NCBI GenBank assembly: GCA_027067575.1
Contig: JAMOVQ010000012.1
Coordinates: forward strand, 1-63,990
DNA from: Thermoanaerobaculia bacterium
Lineage (GTDB): Bacteria > Acidobacteriota > Thermoanaerobaculia > Thermoanaerobaculales > Sulfomarinibacteraceae
Direction: 5' to 3'
DNA: 63,990 nucleotides
The notes beneath the pieces are model-generated. The model saw nothing but the letters and a program-made list of their open reading frames with translations, searched no databases and was not told the origin of the DNA. Each line of letters opens with the position of its first letter. The first letter of the stretch is position 1. Shown piece by piece: positions 55,828-60,140 of the stretch. Made by a program: the position numbers and the translations under genes.

Positions 55828-55913
55828 GCCGGAGTGGCGGAATGGCAGACGCAGGGGACTCAAAATCCCCCGAGGGTCACCTCGTGCGGGTTCGACTCCC
55901 GCCTCCGGCACCA
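55828..55913 (+). tRNA. tRNA-Leu(CAA)
   Basis: GCCGGAG/CTCCGGC acceptor stem, TGGCAGAC D-loop, GGGGA-CTCAAAA-TCCCC anticodon arm, long variable arm, GGTTCGACTCC, encoded CCA. Confidence 0.95.
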
Positions 55914-55920
55914 CATCCGC

Positions 55921-56316
55921 TCAATCCACGGCCTCCCCGCGGATCCTCGCGGCCGTCTCCACGAGGCGGGCTTGCGCCTCCCGGTCCACCGGCGGAAGCG
56001 GGAAGTCCGCAAGGCTGTTCGTCGGCAGAAGGTGGACGTGAACGTGGGGCACCTCGTACCCGACCACCATGGTCACCACCCGGGCGCAGCCCGTCCGTTC
56101 CTTGAGGAGCGCGGCCACCGTCCGCGCTGCATCCCACAGCCGGTGGTAGGCCTCTTCCGGCATGGAGAACAGCTCCTCGTGGGGGTGCTTGGGGATCACG
56201 AGCGTGTGCCCCTCGACCCTCGGGTTGATATCGAGGAAGGCCAGGTGCTCCCCGTCCTCCCAGATCCTGTGACACGGGATCTCGCCCGCCACGATCCGTT
56301 CGAAGATCGTCGCCAT
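55921..56316 (-). CDS. HIT family nucleotide-binding protein
   Basis: TIFERIV.GEIP, FLDINP..EGHTLVIPK, VPHVHVHL triad. Confidence 0.92.
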   Translation of the reverse strand: MATIFERIVAGEIPCHRIWEDGEHLAFLDINPRVEGHTLVIPKHPHEELFSMPEEAYHRLWDAARTVAALLKERTGCARVVTMVVGYEVPHVHVHLLPTNSLADFPLPPVDREAQARLVETAARIRGEAVD

Positions 56317-56354
56317 GTGCGCCTCCCCTCATGACCGCCGCGAACCCCTGCCCC

Positions 56355-56397
56355 TTGACGGAACAACGGGGCACGGCTATATTCCTCGATGATTATA
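56355..56397 (+). promoter_or_regulatory. Sigma70 promoter with overlapping inverted-repeat operator
   Basis: TTGACG(56355)-N17-TATATT(56378); TATATTC-N6-GATTATA imperfect palindrome at 56378-56397. Confidence 0.75.
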
Positions 56398-56410
56398 AAG
56401 GAGGGTGCCG

Positions 56411-56776
56411 GTGCGAGCCCTTCCGTCCGACGAAGTCCTCGAGAAGATCGCCGATGTCTTGAAGGCGCTCGCCGATCCGACACGTCTCCGGATCCTCCAC
56501 GTGCTGCAGGACGGGGAGCTGTGTGTCAGCGACATCCTGGGCCATGTGGGGGGAAGCCAGGCCAACGTCTCGAAGCACCTGTCCGTGCTCAAACGCGCCG
56601 GGCTCGTCGGATGCCACCGGGAGGGGCTGAACGTGTTCTACCACATCTCGGACGACGGCGTCTTCGCCATCTGCCGCAACGTCTGCGACTCCCTGCAGAT
56701 CCGCCTCGACCGTGAACGTGAGACGCTGGCGGAGGCGAGAAGCCGCATGGACACGGGAACCGGGTCCCCGGACTGA
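56411..56776 (+). CDS. ArsR/SmtB-family transcriptional repressor, Cys-containing
   Basis: AAGGAGG SD then GTG 56411; LKALADPTRLRIL, ELCVSD, SQANVSKHL, C-terminal ICRNVC. Confidence 0.92.
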   Translation: MRALPSDEVLEKIADVLKALADPTRLRILHVLQDGELCVSDILGHVGGSQANVSKHLSVLKRAGLVGCHREGLNVFYHISDDGVFAICRNVCDSLQIRLDRERETLAEARSRMDTGTGSPD

Positions 56777-56801
56777 CGGCGAACCCATCGGAGTGAACCT
56801 G

Positions 56802-57005
56802 ATGAACGACCACCGAGGAACGACGACGACTCCGGCCATCCCCACGGGCACCTGCCCGGACTGCCGGGGCGAGGTGCTGCCGGTCCCGACTTGAGGAGCC
56901 ATTCTCTGGCGGTGCCGGAGCTGCAAGAACGTGTTCTACACAGGCCAGGTCTTTCCGGACGGCGTGCCGCTCGATGTGTGGCAGCGGCTCCCGTTCGGCT
57001 GCTGA
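56802..57005 (+). CDS. Candidate selenoprotein: 67-aa zinc-ribbon protein CPDC-x9-U-x6-CRSC (Sec at codon 31, TGA 56892-56894)
   Basis: GGAG SD then ATG; the two CxxC knuckles lie on either side of the TGA in one frame; SECIS-like hairpin follows. Confidence 0.7.
56904..56920 (+). promoter_or_regulatory. Putative bacterial SECIS element 1
   Basis: CTCTGGC-GGT-GCCGGAG, 7-bp stem (one G-U pair); loop begins 16 nt after the TGA. Confidence 0.65.
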
Positions 57006-57014
57006 GGAGGAACC

Positions 57015-57224
57015 ATGCCGATCTACGAGTACCGCTGTCTCGAATGCGGCGCCGTCTTCTCGAAGCTGCAGCGGGTTGGCGCGACCAGCGAGGGCGTGCG
57101 GTGCCCGAAGTGCGGCTCCGAGAAAGTGGAGCGCATGCTGTCCACCTTTGCCTCGGGCTCCTCGAGCGGAACCGGAACCTCAACCGGTGCGGCGTCGTGC
57201 ACGGGGTTCACCTGAGGCGTCTGA
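57015..57224 (+). CDS. FmdB-family zinc-ribbon protein, candidate selenoprotein (...SCTGFT-U-GV*); ends at 57215 if the TGA is a stop
   Basis: GAGGAGG SD; MPIYEYRCLECG..F..CPKCGS..VERMLSTFA; TGA 57213 followed by GGC GTC TGA and a SECIS-like hairpin. Confidence 0.85.
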
Positions 57225-57228
57225 CCCG

Positions 57229-57249
57229 ATGCCGCCAGGCTGGCGGCAT
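57229..57249 (+). promoter_or_regulatory. Putative bacterial SECIS element 2 (alternative: U-less terminator between convergent genes)
   Basis: ATGCCGCCA-GGC-TGGCGGCAT perfect 9-bp stem; loop 22 nt after TGA 57213; no U-tract on either strand. Confidence 0.55.
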
Positions 57250-57293
57250 GCACGGTGAACACAGACACACCCCGACCGGGAGGACCGGGAGCG

Positions 57294-58424
57294 TCAGGGC
57301 TCCGGTGAGTTTCGCTTGAGTCGCAACAAGCCACGGTCCAGAAGTCCCTTCATGCGAAGCCGGTTCTCCATGGCATCGCCCGGGATCAGCTTGAGGACCT
57401 CGTCCACCGTGTAGATACCGTTGATCCGGGAGAGGAGAAACCCCTCCTCGGGACCGCACTCGACGTTGGGCAGGTCGGCCATGGAGATGGCGAGCTCGGG
57501 AACCGCCCTGTCGTCGAGCCCCGAACGGTCCAGGGCCTCCTGGATCCGAGACCGGAACGTCCCCAGGAGCTCTGCAACCTTTCGCTGGCTTCCGTACTTT
57601 TCTTCCAGGCCGGTGAGGCCTGCGAGGGCATCCAGCAGACGGCCCTCCGCCAGCGCCCGCTCCACGTCCTTGACGAGAAACCTCCAGGCGCCTCCGCCCA
57701 GGCCGGGGATCGGCTCCGGCTCACCCGAGGGAGGCAACAGCTCGAAGACACCCTGCTGGATCCCCTGGAAGACGAAGTGAGCAACATGGAACGTGGCGAT
57801 CCGGCAGTTGAGTGCGATCCGCTCCACGCTGTTCGCCCCGTCGATCTCCCTGAGAATCGCGATCTCCACCGGTCCCATCTTTCGCACATCGAGCGCCCGG
57901 ACGATCCTTGGCACGTGAGCCGCGTCTGGGACCACATCCCGGATCCTCTGCCACTCGTCCTTGCGGCGGACCCCCTCGAGAATCAACAGGTCTACCGGAA
58001 TCGCCTGAGCCTGGAACTTTCGGGCTGGCAAGATGTTGTCCAGGAACCGGAACTCCCCCTCATCCCAGAGGAACAGGTCGTAGATCAGCTCCTCGGTCTT
58101 GACCCGGAGGATCCGATCGAGCTCCTCCCGGTTGAGCCGGCCGATCATCACGAGCAGCTCTCCGAGCATGGTGCCGTGCCGTTCCTGGAGCTGGAGCATG
58201 TGCTCGAGCTCCTCCTCGCCCAGGATTCCCCAGCCCACGAGGTAGTAGCTGAGAAACTCCTTCGGGTTGTCCGAGGCCGACGCCGTGATGGAGCCATCCT
58301 GGAAGTAGATCTTCTTCTGGAAGGCGTCCCCGCTCACCACGAGCGTACCGGTCTTCGCACTCTGCGCCACCCACTGGAGCAGGTCGGCGAAGGGCATTGT
58401 TCGAAGGTTTCCGCTGATCGACAC
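57294..58424 (-). CDS. DUF4388 (PATAN-like) domain protein
   Basis: ISGNLRTMPFADLLQW..KTGTL..KKIYFQDG, LFLWDEGEFRF, LILEGVRRKDEW. Confidence 0.85.
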   Translation of the reverse strand: MSISGNLRTMPFADLLQWVAQSAKTGTLVVSGDAFQKKIYFQDGSITASASDNPKEFLSYYLVGWGILGEEELEHMLQLQERHGTMLGELLVMIGRLNREELDRILRVKTEELIYDLFLWDEGEFRFLDNILPARKFQAQAIPVDLLILEGVRRKDEWQRIRDVVPDAAHVPRIVRALDVRKMGPVEIAILREIDGANSVERIALNCRIATFHVAHFVFQGIQQGVFELLPPSGEPEPIPGLGGGAWRFLVKDVERALAEGRLLDALAGLTGLEEKYGSQRKVAELLGTFRSRIQEALDRSGLDDRAVPELAISMADLPNVECGPEEGFLLSRINGIYTVDEVLKLIPGDAMENRLRMKGLLDRGLLRLKRNSPEP

Positions 58425-58643: not shown

Positions 58644-60140
58644 ATGGCTGATCTCATGACTCGTCTTTCGGAAATGGTGATGAACAACCTCGGGCCGGTA
58701 CTCATGGCGCTGGGCGTCCTTGTGGGCGGCTGGCTCATCGCGCTCATTGTTGCAGCGCTGGTCCGGCGAACGCTCAAACGCACCGACATCGACAACAGGC
58801 TTGCAGCATGGCTCCTGGGTCCCGATCGGGCCGAGCGCCTCCCGGTCGAACGATGGATCGGGCGGATCGTCTTCTGGATCCTGATGCTGTTCGTCCTCGT
58901 CGGCTTCTTCCAGGTTCTCGGCCTGGCAGCGATCACCGAACCGCTGAACCGGTTCCTGACGAGGATCTTCGACTACCTGCCGCGGCTCCTGGGACCGGTC
59001 ATTCTCGGTTTCGTCGCATGGATCGTCGCGACCGCCCTACGGTTCGTCGTCCGCCGGGCCCTCCAGAGTCTCGAGCTCGACGAGAAGCTCAGCGACAAGG
59101 CCGGCCTGGAGGACGAGAAGGCCATTCCGCTGGCAAAATCGGTCAGCGACACGGTCTACTGGCTCGTCTTCCTGCTGTTCCTCCCCGCGATCCTCGGAGC
59201 CCTCGACCTGGACGGTCTGCTCGCACCGGTCCAGGGAATGATGGATCGTGTCTTAGGGTTCCTGCCCCAGCTCTTCGCCGCCGGCCTGATCCTCTTCTTC
59301 GGGTGGCTCCTGGCGCGGGTCCTCCAACGGATCGTCACCAACCTGCTGGCAGCGGCCGGCGTGGACCGCATCGGAGAGCAGGCGGGACTCCAGACGGCGC
59401 TGGGCGAACAGCGGCTCTCCGGGCTCGTGGGGCTGATCGTCTACGTCCTCGTCCTGATCCCGGTTCTCATCGCCTCTCTCAACACGCTCAAACTCGATGC
59501 AGTCACGCGGCCCGCCTCCGAGATGCTCAACACGATCCTGACCGCCCTGCCGCTGGTCTTCGGCGCCTCACTGATCCTGGTCATCGCCTACTTCGTCGGC
59601 CGGGCCGTCTCGGGGCTCCTGAGCAACCTCCTGGCCGGCGTCGGGTTCGATTCGATCCTCGTCAAGCTCGGAATCGGCAAGGAACCTTCGGGCGGCGCGG
59701 CGACCCCCTCGGCGATCGTCGGGCATCTCGTGCTCGTCGCGATCATGCTGTTCGCCTCGATCGAGGCCGTCGATATGCTGGGGTTCGATGTTCTCGGCGC
59801 CCTGCTAGCCGAGTTCCTGGTGTTCGCCGGCCAAATCCTGCTGGGGCTCGTCATCTTCGGGGTCGGGCTCTACCTGGCCGACCTGGCCGCGAAGACCGTC
59901 CAGGCCTCCGCGTCCGCCCAGGCCCGTCTCCTGAGTCTGGCGACCCGGATCTCCATCGTCGTCCTCGCTGGAGCCATGGCTCTCCGGCAGATGGGCCTCG
60001 CCAATGAGATCATCACACTGGCGTTCGGCCTCCTGCTCGGGGCGATCGCCGTCGCCTTCGCCCTGGCGTTCGGACTGGGATGCCGGGAGATCGCCGCCGA
60101 GGCCACACGGAGCTGGCTCGAGAAACTGAACCGCCAGTAG
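58644..60140 (+). CDS. Multi-TM protein with repeated 'TM helix' units (CmpX / MscS N-terminal-like)
   Basis: GGAGG SD; repeated FxYLPRLLG / FLPQLFAA / ALPLVFGA units; C-terminal ALAFGLG. Confidence 0.85.
   Translation: MADLMTRLSEMVMNNLGPVLMALGVLVGGWLIALIVAALVRRTLKRTDIDNRLAAWLLGPDRAERLPVERWIGRIVFWILMLFVLVGFFQVLGLAAITEPLNRFLTRIFDYLPRLLGPVILGFVAWIVATALRFVVRRALQSLELDEKLSDKAGLEDEKAIPLAKSVSDTVYWLVFLLFLPAILGALDLDGLLAPVQGMMDRVLGFLPQLFAAGLILFFGWLLARVLQRIVTNLLAAAGVDRIGEQAGLQTALGEQRLSGLVGLIVYVLVLIPVLIASLNTLKLDAVTRPASEMLNTILTALPLVFGASLILVIAYFVGRAVSGLLSNLLAGVGFDSILVKLGIGKEPSGGAATPSAIVGHLVLVAIMLFASIEAVDMLGFDVLGALLAEFLVFAGQILLGLVIFGVGLYLADLAAKTVQASASAQARLLSLATRISIVVLAGAMALRQMGLANEIITLAFGLLLGAIAVAFALAFGLGCREIAAEATRSWLEKLNRQ

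What the first reader, a model, noticed from the sequence alone, without database searches (positions are those of the whole stretch)
56355..57249. Hidden ArsR-controlled operon encoding two tiny zinc-ribbon selenoprotein candidates
Seen in sequence: a TTGACG-N17-TATATT promoter with an overlapping palindrome drives arsR (56411-56776), then ORF1 (ATG 56802), then an FmdB-type gene (57015). Each small gene has an in-frame TGA followed by a Gly codon and by a hairpin with a 3-nt GGN loop, 16 nt and 22 nt downstream respectively. Established: bacterial SECIS elements sit just 3' of the UGA, with the apical loop roughly 16-37 nt away and a G at the start of the loop. Inference: two independent TGA+SECIS signals in adjacent Cys-rich genes under a Cys-containing ArsR suggest a dedicated Sec-based redox/metal/sulfur-sensing or Fe-S/Zn handling module. 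Standard gene callers would truncate it. I cannot confirm whether it has been described.
Basis: partly seen in the sequence, partly recalled or inferred. Interest (0 to 1): 0.88.

Follow-up and report, generated by a model that had tools for sequence, protein, structure and literature searches.

The report
Two hidden selenoprotein genes behind ArsR
Two tiny zinc-binding protein genes beside an ArsR-type regulator each carry a "stop" codon that is almost certainly read as selenocysteine by the ordinary bacterial mechanism, so gene finders miss one and truncate the other; one protein type is not in the catalogues I could read, and their function is unknown.

Summary
The operon arsR (56411-56776), ORF1 (56802-57005, TGA at 56892) and an FmdB-type gene (57015-57224, TGA at 57213) is real.

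- **Conservation:** the cassette occurs in 28 related Acidobacteriota genomes (names point to Thermoanaerobaculales). All 28 keep TGA at both sites.
- **ORF1:** one zinc ribbon spans its TGA. The six codons forming the hairpin CTCTGGC-GGT-GCCRGAG are frozen at synonymous sites.
- **FmdB gene:** TGA is always followed by exactly two codons and a second stop (TGA, TAG or TAA). A covarying GC-rich hairpin with a GGN apex lies 16-22 nt downstream.
- **Machinery:** the genome has selA, selB, selD and tRNA-Sec.

Both genes are therefore very probably selenoprotein genes.

ORF1 is a divergent relative of NCBIfam NF041197 (dual-CXXC small selenoprotein). Its Sec falls in the same column, but it scores below the curated cut-off. 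No Cys form was found among 1.84 billion representative proteins.

The FmdB protein ends C-x4-U-G-V. This differs from the FmdB selenoproteins predicted from GOS, which have Sec inside a CxxC motif.

ArsR control is inferred from invariant synteny and a conserved promoter/operator region. Function is unknown; a selenol/thiol ligand or redox relay is my inference.

Verdict: new variant of a known kind.

The parts
56355..56383 (+). Sigma-70-type promoter TTGACG-N17-TATATT
   Evidence: Only promoter-like site in 55900-57500, 10 of 12 positions, 0.1 expected in shuffles. A TTGAC/TTGC -35 and an AT-rich -10 recur upstream of arsR in all orthologous loci.
56378..56397 (+). Candidate ArsR operator: imperfect AT-rich inverted repeat TATATTCCTC|GATGATTATA overlapping the -10
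   Evidence: 16 of 20 positions self-complementary by direct reading. A related element (ATATTSC...GGTTATA / ATATTGG...CCAATTATA) sits at the promoter of every orthologous locus. Binding is not shown. The repeat tool finds only the exact TTATAA core.
56411..56776 (+). arsR: ArsR/SmtB-family repressor (121 aa from GTG 56411)
   Evidence: NF033788 96.1 bits against a cut-off of 55; PF01022 58.7 bits. Present upstream of ORF1 in 27/27 loci. Cys70, Cys90 and Cys94 (numbered from GTG 56405) are invariant in 27/27; Cys40 is present in 21/27.
56802..57005 (+). ORF1: 67-residue zinc-ribbon selenoprotein, CPDC-x9-U-x6-CRSC plus a conserved C-terminal Cys
   Evidence: 28 orthologues, each with one in-frame TGA at P-[VL]-P-T-U-G. 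Residues are invariant on both sides of the TGA. AlphaFold2 models one domain, pLDDT 90. NF041197 scores 22.6 bits.
56892..56894 (+). Sec codon (UGA) of ORF1, residue 31
   Evidence: TGA in 28/28 orthologues. Replacing this residue by Ala in an orthologue (from L023) lowers the NF041197 score by 9 bits, and moving the Cys one place either way lowers it by 9.6-12 bits.
56904..56920 (+). SECIS hairpin of ORF1: CUCUGGC-GGU-GCCGGAG
   Evidence: -9.3 kcal/mol, 7 bp, loop GGU starting 16 nt after UGA. The sequence is invariant in 28/28 except R/Q (CGG/CAG, U-G to U-A) and A/G changes that keep pairing. Codons +4 to +9 are frozen: Leu CTC 28/28, Arg CGG 28/28, Cys TGC 28/28, Ser AGC 24 of 25. Other invariant residues use 3-5 codons.
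57015..57224 (+). FmdB-family zinc-ribbon selenoprotein, 69 residues, ending S-C-T-G-F-T-U-G-V
   Evidence: TIGR02605 60.6 bits against 31.3; PF09723 61.7 bits against 34.4. All 28 orthologues end C-x(4,5)-U-x-x-stop. The AlphaFold2 model has a zinc ribbon at pLDDT about 80 and a tail (residues 47-62) below 50.
57213..57215 (+). Sec codon (UGA) of the FmdB-type gene, residue 67
   Evidence: TGA in 28/28. The second stop, always two codons later, is TGA 20, TAG 6, TAA 2, which matches the genome background of 77% TGA.
57222..57224 (+). True stop codon of the FmdB-type gene
   Evidence: In-frame stop exactly two codons after the Sec codon in 28/28 orthologues, although the two codons differ (GGCGTC, GCGTCC, CCAAAC, GGGATC and others).
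57229..57249 (+). SECIS hairpin of the FmdB-type gene: AUGCCGCCA-GGC-UGGCGGCAU. It lies in the 3' UTR and may also serve as a terminator.
   Evidence: -14.7 kcal/mol, 9 bp, loop GGC starting 22 nt after UGA. In 26 of 28 orthologues a stem of at least 6 bp with a GG or GUG-type apex starts 16-22 nt after UGA, against 1.4% of shuffles. Stem sequences differ throughout but stay paired. There is no T tract.

Best explanation
**Architecture.** A sigma-70-type promoter with an overlapping AT-rich inverted repeat drives one transcript: arsR, ORF1 and an FmdB-type gene. The gaps between genes are 25 nt and 9 nt, and each gene has its own GGAG(G) ribosome-binding site.

**Recoding.** Both small genes are selenoprotein genes. 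SelB carrying Sec-tRNA(Sec) binds a short GC-rich hairpin with a GGN apical loop, placed 16 nt (ORF1) or 22 nt (FmdB gene) after the UGA, and inserts selenocysteine.
- ORF1 becomes a 67-residue zinc ribbon. Its Sec sits at the tip of the beta-hairpin between the two CxxC knuckles. It also has a conserved Cys at its flexible C-terminus.
- The FmdB protein becomes a 69-residue zinc ribbon. It carries a disordered Ser/Gly/Thr-rich arm that ends C-T-G-F-T-U-G-V.

**How well each step is supported.**
- Supported by sequence comparison only: the recoding signals, their conservation, the presence of the Sec machinery, and the operon architecture. No experiment backs any of it.
- Inferred: ArsR represses the operon at the inverted repeat and is released by a thiol-reactive signal acting on its invariant Cys70/Cys90/Cys94.
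- Inferred, about 0.35-0.4: each small protein uses a selenol/thiol pair on a mobile segment anchored to a zinc-ribbon scaffold. The pair would bind or relay a thiophilic species (soft metal or metalloid, sulfane sulfur, selenium) or reducing equivalents.
For: **Sec trait present.** tRNA-Sec, selB at 317 bits, selA at 496 bits and selD at 363 bits, all above their cut-offs.

**ORF1.**
- 28 orthologues in two families of the order, 43-58% identical, each with exactly one TGA at the same column.
- Invariant residues lie on both sides of the TGA.
- It is modelled as one zinc-ribbon domain, pLDDT 90.
- Synonymous sites are frozen only inside the 17-nt hairpin.
- Two rare non-Sec relatives (Arg, Ser) have lost the loop GG, reading GTT and GCT.

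**FmdB gene.**
- TGA in 28/28, then two codons, then a second stop whose codon usage matches the genome background.
- The hairpin has the same C-GGN-G apex as the internal ORF1 hairpin, keeps a fixed distance from UGA, and has fully compensated stems: 26 of 28 against 1.4% of shuffles.
- The same GF[ST]-U tail with hairpin occurs in unrelated gene neighbourhoods.

**SECIS model.** Both hairpins meet the published bacterial constraints: loop 3-9 nt, stem 4-16 bp, G in the first two loop positions, 16-37 nt spacing, MFE of -7.5 kcal/mol or lower (PMC13188914).

**Operon.** arsR lies upstream in 27/27 loci. The promoter and AT-rich element are conserved. ArsR keeps three invariant Cys.

**Related family.** NF041197 places its Cys/Sec column exactly on the ORF1 Sec.
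Against: - There is no experimental evidence of any kind. No RNA runs hold this stretch, and there are no proteomic or 75Se data.
- No Cys-containing homologue of ORF1 exists among 1.84 billion representatives. The usual Cys/Sec pair criterion therefore cannot be applied to it.
- The FmdB hairpin lies after the last gene and could be, or double as, a transcription terminator.
- In this single sequence, the stretches around the hairpins fold no better than shuffled controls.
- The 28 genomes are related, so the counts are not independent events.
- ArsR binding, its inducer and any biochemical role are entirely inferred. Flanking genes in this window (HIT protein, DUF4388 protein, mechanosensitive channel) give no functional hint.
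Confidence: 0.88

Rival explanations
1. Only ORF1 is a selenoprotein. The FmdB-type gene really ends at TGA 57213, and the hairpin at 57229-57249 is a factor-independent terminator closing the operon.
For: The hairpin follows the last gene of the operon and faces a convergent gene. TGA is the commonest stop in this genome at 77%. Only two codons would be added, so coding conservation is hard to measure.
Against: - A second in-frame stop lies exactly two codons later in 28/28 loci, although those codons vary. It also occurs in distant loci (U-A-G-stop, U-A-stop).
- The first stop is TGA in 28/28, while the second is TGA/TAG/TAA at 20/6/2.
- The hairpin keeps a GGN apex and a 16-22 nt distance from the UGA, like the internal ORF1 SECIS, which cannot be a terminator.
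- No T tract follows it.
- The invariant Cys at -5/-6 and G-F-[ST] directly before the TGA suggest a functional C-terminal motif that is completed by the next residue.
Confidence: 0.07
2. Both TGAs are ordinary stops. ORF1 would be a decayed gene or a 30-codon leader peptide, and the hairpins would be attenuators or terminators regulating downstream expression.
For: Gene callers treat the locus this way. The 34-40 nt contexts fold no better than shuffles in the single sequence.
Against: - A pseudogene would not keep one TGA at one column, an open frame, and invariant Cys, Trp and Pro residues on both sides across 28 genomes at 43-58% identity.
- The two CxxC halves form one zinc ribbon.
- The half after the TGA has no start codon before its CxxC.
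- The full Sec machinery is present.
Confidence: 0.02
3. The UGAs are read through, but not as selenocysteine. Near-cognate Trp, Cys or Arg might be inserted, or UGA might be locally reassigned.
For: One metagenomic gene call of an ORF1 homologue was made with TGA=W. Rare relatives carry Arg or Ser at the site.
Against: - TGA ends 77% of long open frames in this genome, so it is not reassigned.
- SECIS-type hairpins at the canonical distance, plus selA, selB, selC and selD, give a specific mechanism.
- The relatives with a sense codon have lost the loop GG, as expected if the hairpin serves Sec insertion.
Confidence: 0.02

Closest known systems
NCBIfam NF041197, 'dual CXXC motif small (seleno)protein' (OS_HP3 of the Olavius symbiont; also 'hypothetical protein DW'). 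Listed in PMC13188914.
   Same: A small protein with CxxC, then Sec, then CxxC. ORF1 and its orthologues hit only this selenoprotein model (22-29.7 bits, E = 1e-4 to 5e-7), without gaps over profile positions 1-32. The model's Cys/Sec column falls exactly on the ORF1 Sec.
   Different: All scores are below the curated cut-off of 40 bits. The local motif is P-V-P-T-U-G rather than the RxU or GxU listed for that family. The C-terminal 20 positions of the profile are not matched. ORF1 has its own conserved F-P-x-G-x-P...W...C tail. No Cys form was found.
FmdB-family selenoproteins predicted from Global Ocean Sampling reads (Zhang and Gladyshev 2008, PMC2398784; TIGR02605)
   Same: The same zinc-ribbon family (TIGR02605 and PF09723 above cut-off), predicted to contain Sec with a bacterial SECIS.
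   Different: There the Sec replaces a zinc-ribbon Cys (CxxU or UxxU motif). Here all four ribbon Cys are Cys, and the Sec is the third residue from the C-terminus of a disordered tail, C-x4-U-G-V.
'UXX-star' selenoprotein families 1 and 2 (NF041114, NF041211) and the KCU-star family (NF033934). Haft and Tolstoy 2025, as listed in PMC13188914.
   Same: Sec is followed by two residues and the stop codon, so annotation loses only a few residues. [quoted passage not shown]
   Different: No sequence match: neither model appears at E of 1 or better for the FmdB protein. The scaffold here is an FmdB zinc ribbon. I could not read the primary paper.
Tso 'three selenoprotein operon' with the ArsR/SmtB-type regulator TsoR (NF045707; Haft and Tolstoy 2025 via PMC13188914)
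   Same: An ArsR-family regulator heads an operon of several small selenoprotein genes. The sister family of this locus has three such genes. The ArsR here gives a partial hit to the TsoR model.
   Different: The TsoR score is 59.8 bits against a cut-off of 115. None of the small proteins matches TsoA, TsoB, TsoC, TsoX or TsoY.
Mammalian thioredoxin reductase C-terminal Gly-Cys-Sec-Gly arm (my own knowledge; analogy only)
   Same: A penultimate-region Sec is paired with a nearby Cys on a flexible C-terminal extension. In that enzyme the pair shuttles reducing equivalents.
   Different: There is no homology. The spacing is C-x4/5-U rather than C-U. There is no flavoprotein domain. Whether a selenenylsulfide forms here is unknown.

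Membership tests
Bacterial selenoprotein gene (Sec-UGA plus bSECIS) | In-frame UGA kept as UGA in orthologues | tested here: met
   TGA in 28/28 at both sites. No TAA, TAG or sense codon appears in the genome set.
Bacterial selenoprotein gene (Sec-UGA plus bSECIS) | Coding conservation continues past the UGA | tested here: met
   ORF1 has 9 invariant residues after the UGA and folds as a single domain. In the FmdB gene, exactly two codons and then a stop follow in 28/28.
Bacterial selenoprotein gene (Sec-UGA plus bSECIS) | bSECIS model: loop 3-9 nt, stem 4-16 bp, G in the first two loop positions, 16-37 nt from UGA, MFE of -7.5 kcal/mol or lower (PMC13188914) | tested here: met
   ORF1: 7 bp, loop GGU, 16 nt, -9.3 kcal/mol. 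FmdB gene: 9 bp, loop GGC, 22 nt, -14.7 kcal/mol. Both are conserved or covarying in orthologues.
Bacterial selenoprotein gene (Sec-UGA plus bSECIS) | selA, selB, selC and selD present in the genome | tested here: met
   tRNA-Sec on C116; selB 317 bits; selA 496 bits; selD 363 bits.
Bacterial selenoprotein gene (Sec-UGA plus bSECIS) | Cys-containing homologues align Cys with the UGA (usual, but not obligatory) | tested here: not met
   A profile search of 1.84 billion representatives found three true ORF1 homologues: one called with TGA=W, one with Arg, one with Ser. None has Cys. For the FmdB tail, no GF[ST]-C form appears among 31 database hits.
Bacterial selenoprotein gene (Sec-UGA plus bSECIS) | Selenium demonstrated in the protein | not testable with these tools
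   No RNA or proteomic data are available. Only DNA runs from hydrothermal vent metagenomes hold the stretch.
NF041197 dual CXXC motif small (seleno)protein | Score at or above the curated cut-off (40 bits) | tested here: not met
   22.6 bits for the window protein; 22.0-29.7 bits for three orthologues.
NF041197 dual CXXC motif small (seleno)protein | CxxC, Sec, CxxC with the Sec in the family's Cys/Sec column | tested here: met
   Tested on the best-scoring orthologue (from L023). The score is 29.7 bits with C at the Sec position, 20.6 with A, 19.9 with X, and 17.4 or 20.1 with the C moved by one residue.
FmdB family zinc ribbon (TIGR02605 / PF09723) | Model score above cut-off; MPxYEY start and two CxxC motifs | tested here: met
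   60.6 bits against 31.3, and 61.7 against 34.4.
FmdB-family selenoproteins of the GOS type | Sec replaces a Cys of a CxxC motif (CxxU or UxxU) | tested here: not met
   All four ribbon Cys are encoded by Cys codons. Sec is residue 67 of 69.
UXX-star selenoprotein families (NF041114, NF041211) | Sec followed by two residues and a stop | tested here: met
   U-G-V-stop here; U-x-x-stop in 28/28 orthologues.
UXX-star selenoprotein families (NF041114, NF041211) | Match to the family models | tested here: not met
   Neither model is listed at E of 1 or better.
Tso operon / TsoR (NF045707) | Regulator scores above the TsoR cut-off (115 bits); TsoA/B/C present | tested here: not met
   59.8 bits. 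No Tso model is hit by the small proteins.
ArsR/SmtB metalloregulator (NF033788 / PF01022) | Model score above cut-off | tested here: met
   96.1 bits against 55, and 58.7 against 22. Effector and operator binding were not tested.

The most novel reading that the evidence does not exclude
The arsR cassette is a self-contained, Sec-obligate relay system specific to Thermoanaerobaculia-type Acidobacteriota. It has two members here and three in the sister family, which adds a one-helix membrane protein ending its helix with L-G-V-P-T-U-A. The members share near-identical Sec environments (V-P-T-U-G/A and G-F-[ST]-U-G/A), and for ORF1 no Cys form was found. That would imply chemistry that cysteine cannot replace. 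Examples are hand-over of a selenium, sulfane-sulfur or soft-metal ligand between selenols from membrane to cytoplasm, sensed by a three-Cys ArsR. This would be a new selenoprotein pathway analogous to, but unrelated in sequence to, the Tso and Sao systems.
Probability: 0.3. Interest if true: 0.75.

Novelty: new variant of a known kind. Interest (0 to 1): 0.6.

Why it matters
- **Annotation.** ORF1 is essentially absent from protein databases: three called homologues among 1.84 billion representatives. Every close FmdB homologue in the databases lacks its last three residues, including the probable active-site Sec. Selenoproteome censuses of Acidobacteriota and of vent communities undercount accordingly.
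- **Biology.** ORF1 with no Cys counterpart found, a C-terminal C-x4-U arm on a very widespread zinc-ribbon family of unknown function, and their strict coupling to an ArsR with three invariant Cys together give a small, testable system. It could reveal what FmdB-type zinc ribbons do and why selenium is required.
- **Method.** The frozen synonymous sites in ORF1 are a clean natural example of a coding-region SECIS constraint. They could help train SECIS predictors for high-G+C phyla.

Tried and rejected
- **Word-based protein search with ORF1** found nothing, as expected if the family is uncalled.
It returned only a chance off-frame match inside a 1494-aa Bacteroidota protein. I therefore have no named-genome distribution for ORF1.
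- **A 250-genome sample spread over the phylum** gave no hit other than the window's own genome. That sample contained only three genomes of the order, all already negative. It shows restriction, not absence, and only 26 candidates per genome were scored.
- **The primary paper on UXX-star and Tso families** (Haft and Tolstoy 2025) is not held. I tested membership through the NCBIfam models instead.
- **Rfam** has no matching family.
- **Fold search of the ORF1 model** gives only generic zinc ribbons (ZifS, Rpb9, L37ae, ATCase regulatory chain), none at E of 0.001 or better.
- **PDB sequence search with the FmdB protein** gives only generic zinc fingers.
- **A literature search for ZifS** returned unrelated materials-science papers.
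- **No RNA-seq run** holds the stretch.
- **BigR/SqrR-type persulfide sensor reading of the ArsR:** considered and not adopted. The alpha-2/alpha-3 Cys (Cys40) is missing in 6 of 27 orthologues, and the BigR model scores 48 bits against a cut-off of 155.
- **Read-through fusion of ORF1 to the FmdB protein:** considered and rejected. The two are in frame here and in L035, but the frames differ in other orthologues.
Full report
**What is in the sequence.**

The region reads as the first-stage reader said.
- A TTGACG-N17-TATATT promoter (56355-56383) is the only sigma-70-like site in 55900-57500. It matches 10 of 12 positions, against 0.1 expected by chance.
- arsR follows: GGAGG at 56400-56404, GTG 56411, stop at 56776.
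- ORF1 starts 25 nt later at ATG 56802. Its frame reads MNDHRGTTTTPAIPTGTCPDCRGEVLPVPT-TGA-GAILWRCRSCKNVFYTGQVFPDGVPLDVWQRLPFGC-TGA.
- An FmdB-type gene starts 9 nt later at ATG 57015. It ends ...AASCTGFT-TGA-GGC-GTC-TGA.
- The hairpin after the first TGA is CUCUGGC-GGU-GCCGGAG (-9.3 kcal/mol, loop 16 nt after UGA).
- The hairpin after the second is AUGCCGCCA-GGC-UGGCGGCAU (-14.7 kcal/mol, loop 22 nt after UGA).
- Both meet the published bacterial SECIS constraints (PMC13188914).
- In a 70% G+C genome such hairpins are cheap. The 34-40 nt contexts fold no better than shuffles. The single sequence therefore proves little.

**The genome can make selenoproteins.**

The 3.08-Mb assembly (191 contigs, 70% G+C) has tRNA-Sec, selB (317 bits), selA (496 bits) and selD (363 bits). 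All are above their curated cut-offs.

**ORF1 is a conserved gene that spans its TGA.**

- A six-frame search of 60 relatives found 28 further copies. Five genomes of the window's own family of 37 carry it (one of them twice), and 22 of 24 genomes of the sister family do. The copies are 43-58% identical, and every one has exactly one in-frame TGA.
- Properly oriented, all read C-x2-C-x9-U-x6-C-x2-C around P-[VL]-P-T-U-G-x-L-L-W-R-C.
- Invariant residues lie on both sides of the TGA, and the C-terminus carries an invariant Cys.
- With these sequences as alignment, AlphaFold2 models one zinc-ribbon domain (mean pLDDT 90). The Sec sits in the turn between strands 9-14 and 19-23. Fold search returns only generic zinc ribbons.
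- The codon table gives the strongest single argument. Invariant Pro, Gly and Thr positions elsewhere use 3-5 synonymous codons. The six codons forming the hairpin are frozen: Leu CTC 28/28, Trp TGG 28/28, Arg CGG 28/28, Cys TGC 28/28, Arg/Gln only as CGG/CAG, and Ser AGC in 24 of 25. The few changes in the stem keep pairing (U-G to U-A).
- That pattern shows selection on the RNA, exactly where a SECIS must be.

**The FmdB-type gene also reads through its TGA.**

- In all 28 loci the gene follows ORF1. It ends C-x(4,5)-U-x-x-stop, that is G-F-[ST]-U-[GA]-x.
- The first stop is TGA in 28/28. The second, always exactly two codons later although those codons differ, is TGA 20, TAG 6, TAA 2. That matches the background of 77% TGA among long open frames.
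- A stem of at least 6 bp with a GG or GUG-type apex starts 16-22 nt after the UGA in 26 of 28 loci, against 1.4% of shuffles.
- The stems differ completely between lineages (GGCGCC, GGGCTC, GGGACC, GACCGTC, ATGCCGCCA) yet stay paired.
- The apex (C-GGN-G, sometimes GGUC) is the same as in the internal ORF1 hairpin, which cannot be a terminator. No T tract follows it.
- The hairpin may still help terminate transcription. I rate the rival 'true stop plus terminator' at about 0.07.
- AlphaFold2 gives a zinc ribbon (pLDDT about 80) and an unstructured tail (residues 47-62 below 50).

**Public data confirm that annotation misses both genes.**

- All close FmdB homologues in the 5.8-billion-protein collection end at ...C[ST]GFT.
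- In a public vent contig with the same cassette, the space holding ORF1 has no called gene.
- A profile search of 1.84 billion representative proteins found only three real ORF1 homologues.
  - One had been called with TGA=W and is in fact TGA with the usual hairpin.
  - One has AGA (Arg), and its hairpin loop reads GTT.
  - One has AGC (Ser), its loop reads GCT, and no FmdB gene follows it.
- So no Cys form is known. Where the Sec codon is gone, the loop GG is gone too.
- More distant FmdB genes end GFS-U-A-stop (next to a TauE-family gene) and GFS-U-A-G-stop (next to thioredoxin, SBF-like and Usp genes). Both have hairpins. The C-terminal Sec form therefore extends beyond this operon.

**Regulator.**

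- arsR lies upstream in 27 of 27 loci with enough flank.
- Its product is a clear ArsR/SmtB protein (96 bits). Cys70, Cys90 and Cys94 are invariant; Cys40 is present in 21 of 27.
- The promoter region of every locus has an AT-rich imperfect inverted repeat at or next to the -10. Here it is TATATTCCTC|GATGATTATA, 16 of 20 positions self-complementary. The repeat tool sees only the TTATAA core.
- Autoregulated repression released by a thiol-reactive effector is the textbook behaviour of this family. Here it is inference.

**Relation to what is known.**

- *ORF1 and NF041197.* The only selenoprotein model that ORF1 touches is NF041197, 'dual CXXC motif small (seleno)protein'. The window protein scores 22.6 bits, three orthologues score up to 29.7, and the cut-off is 40. 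A substitution test on the best-scoring orthologue shows that the model's Cys/Sec column is the ORF1 Sec column: 29.7 bits with C, 20.6 with A, and 17.4 or 20.1 with C shifted by one. ORF1 is thus a divergent relative of a catalogued family (OS_HP3 / protein DW in PMC13188914). It is not a member by the curated threshold.
- *FmdB selenoproteins.* These were predicted from GOS reads in 2008, but with Sec inside a CxxC motif. The form here keeps four Cys and puts Sec third from the end.
- *UXX-star.* That 'U-x-x-stop' layout is what Haft and Tolstoy call UXX-star. However, their models NF041114 and NF041211 do not match.
- *Tso.* An ArsR-type regulator heading several selenoprotein genes parallels their Tso operon. 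The regulator here scores 59.8 bits against the TsoR cut-off of 115, and no Tso protein model is hit.
- *Limits.* I could not read that paper. Earlier unchecked notes of this scan report the FmdB C-terminal Sec in other genomes. I treated them as leads only.

**Origin.**

Names attached to close homologues are 'Acidobacteria bacterium' and 'Thermoanaerobaculales bacterium'. The stretch is held by hydrothermal vent metagenome runs. ArsR homologues at or above about 64% identity are numerous in metagenomes: 591 proteins at E of 1e-10 or better.

**Mechanism and function.**

- The recoding mechanism is the standard one: SelB with Sec-tRNA(Sec) on a hairpin just 3' of the UGA. I hold it at about 0.9 for ORF1 and 0.85-0.9 for the FmdB gene.
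- Function is open. Each protein pairs its Sec with a conserved Cys on a mobile element fixed to a zinc-ribbon scaffold. In ORF1 the Sec is at the hairpin tip and the Cys is at the C-terminus. In the FmdB protein the motif is C-x4-U on a disordered arm.
- The regulator has a three-Cys site.
- In the sister family the cassette sits between RND, YgaP-like and P-II-like genes upstream and a DUF302 gene downstream.
- The habitat is hydrothermal vents, which are generally rich in sulfide and metals (my own knowledge; one search gives only the habitat).
- My best guess (0.35-0.4) is an inducible selenol/thiol system that binds or relays a thiophilic species or reducing equivalents. Nothing supports a role in Fe-S assembly.

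**Verdict.**

This is a new variant of a known kind. It matters for annotation and as a compact test system, but the recoding mechanism itself holds no surprise.

Noticed in passing
L014-L037 (sister-family loci), between arsR and ORF1, e.g. L019 about 1230-1470: A third selenoprotein candidate, absent from this window and genome. It is a 60-75-residue protein with one transmembrane helix followed by L-P-[RK]-L-G-V-P-T-U-A-V-P-x-P-A-G-G and a later Cys. It has its own hairpin (CCGGCC-GGC-GGCCGG) about 17-20 nt after the UGA. It appears in all 22 sister-family loci examined. It has no Pfam or NCBIfam match.
   Followed up: partly
L050 217-420 and L051 1095-1298: These are the only ORF1 homologues with a sense codon at the Sec column: AGA (Arg) and AGC (Ser), each one base from TGA, neither Cys. 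In both, the hairpin loop has lost its GG (GTT, GCT). L050 still has an FmdB gene ending F-T-U-A-S-stop. L051 has no FmdB gene, and has a YgaP-like membrane gene upstream.
   Followed up: partly
L041 2501-2725; L044 2501-2707: FmdB-family genes from unrelated neighbourhoods also end G-F-S-U-A-stop or G-F-S-U-A-G-stop with a GC-rich hairpin. One sits by TauE and MtrB/PioB genes, the other by thioredoxin, SBF-like and Usp genes. The C-terminal Sec form of FmdB proteins is therefore wider than this operon.
   Followed up: partly
L027 1-3159 (sister family): There the cassette is flanked upstream by the end of an RND-type transporter gene, a YgaP-like_TM (PF11127) gene and a P-II-like (PF00543) gene. 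A DUF302 (PF03625) gene lies downstream. None of these flank the cassette in this window.
   Followed up: partly
window 57003-57017: The terminal TGA of ORF1 is in frame with the ATG of the FmdB-type gene (TGA GGA GGA ACC ATG). The same holds in L035 but not in L011-L013, and no conserved hairpin follows this TGA. I take it as coincidence, not a third recoding site.
   Followed up: yes
window 56346-56376: A 9-nt inverted pair, CCCTGCCCC / GGGGCACGG (89% complementary), brackets the -35 hexamer of the arsR promoter. Its conservation was not examined.
   Followed up: no
window 55921-56316 (-), 57294-58424 (-), about 58650-60140 (+): Neighbours of the operon are a divergent HIT-family gene, a convergent DUF4388-domain gene, and a mechanosensitive-channel-type membrane protein gene. 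No functional link to the operon is evident.
   Followed up: partly
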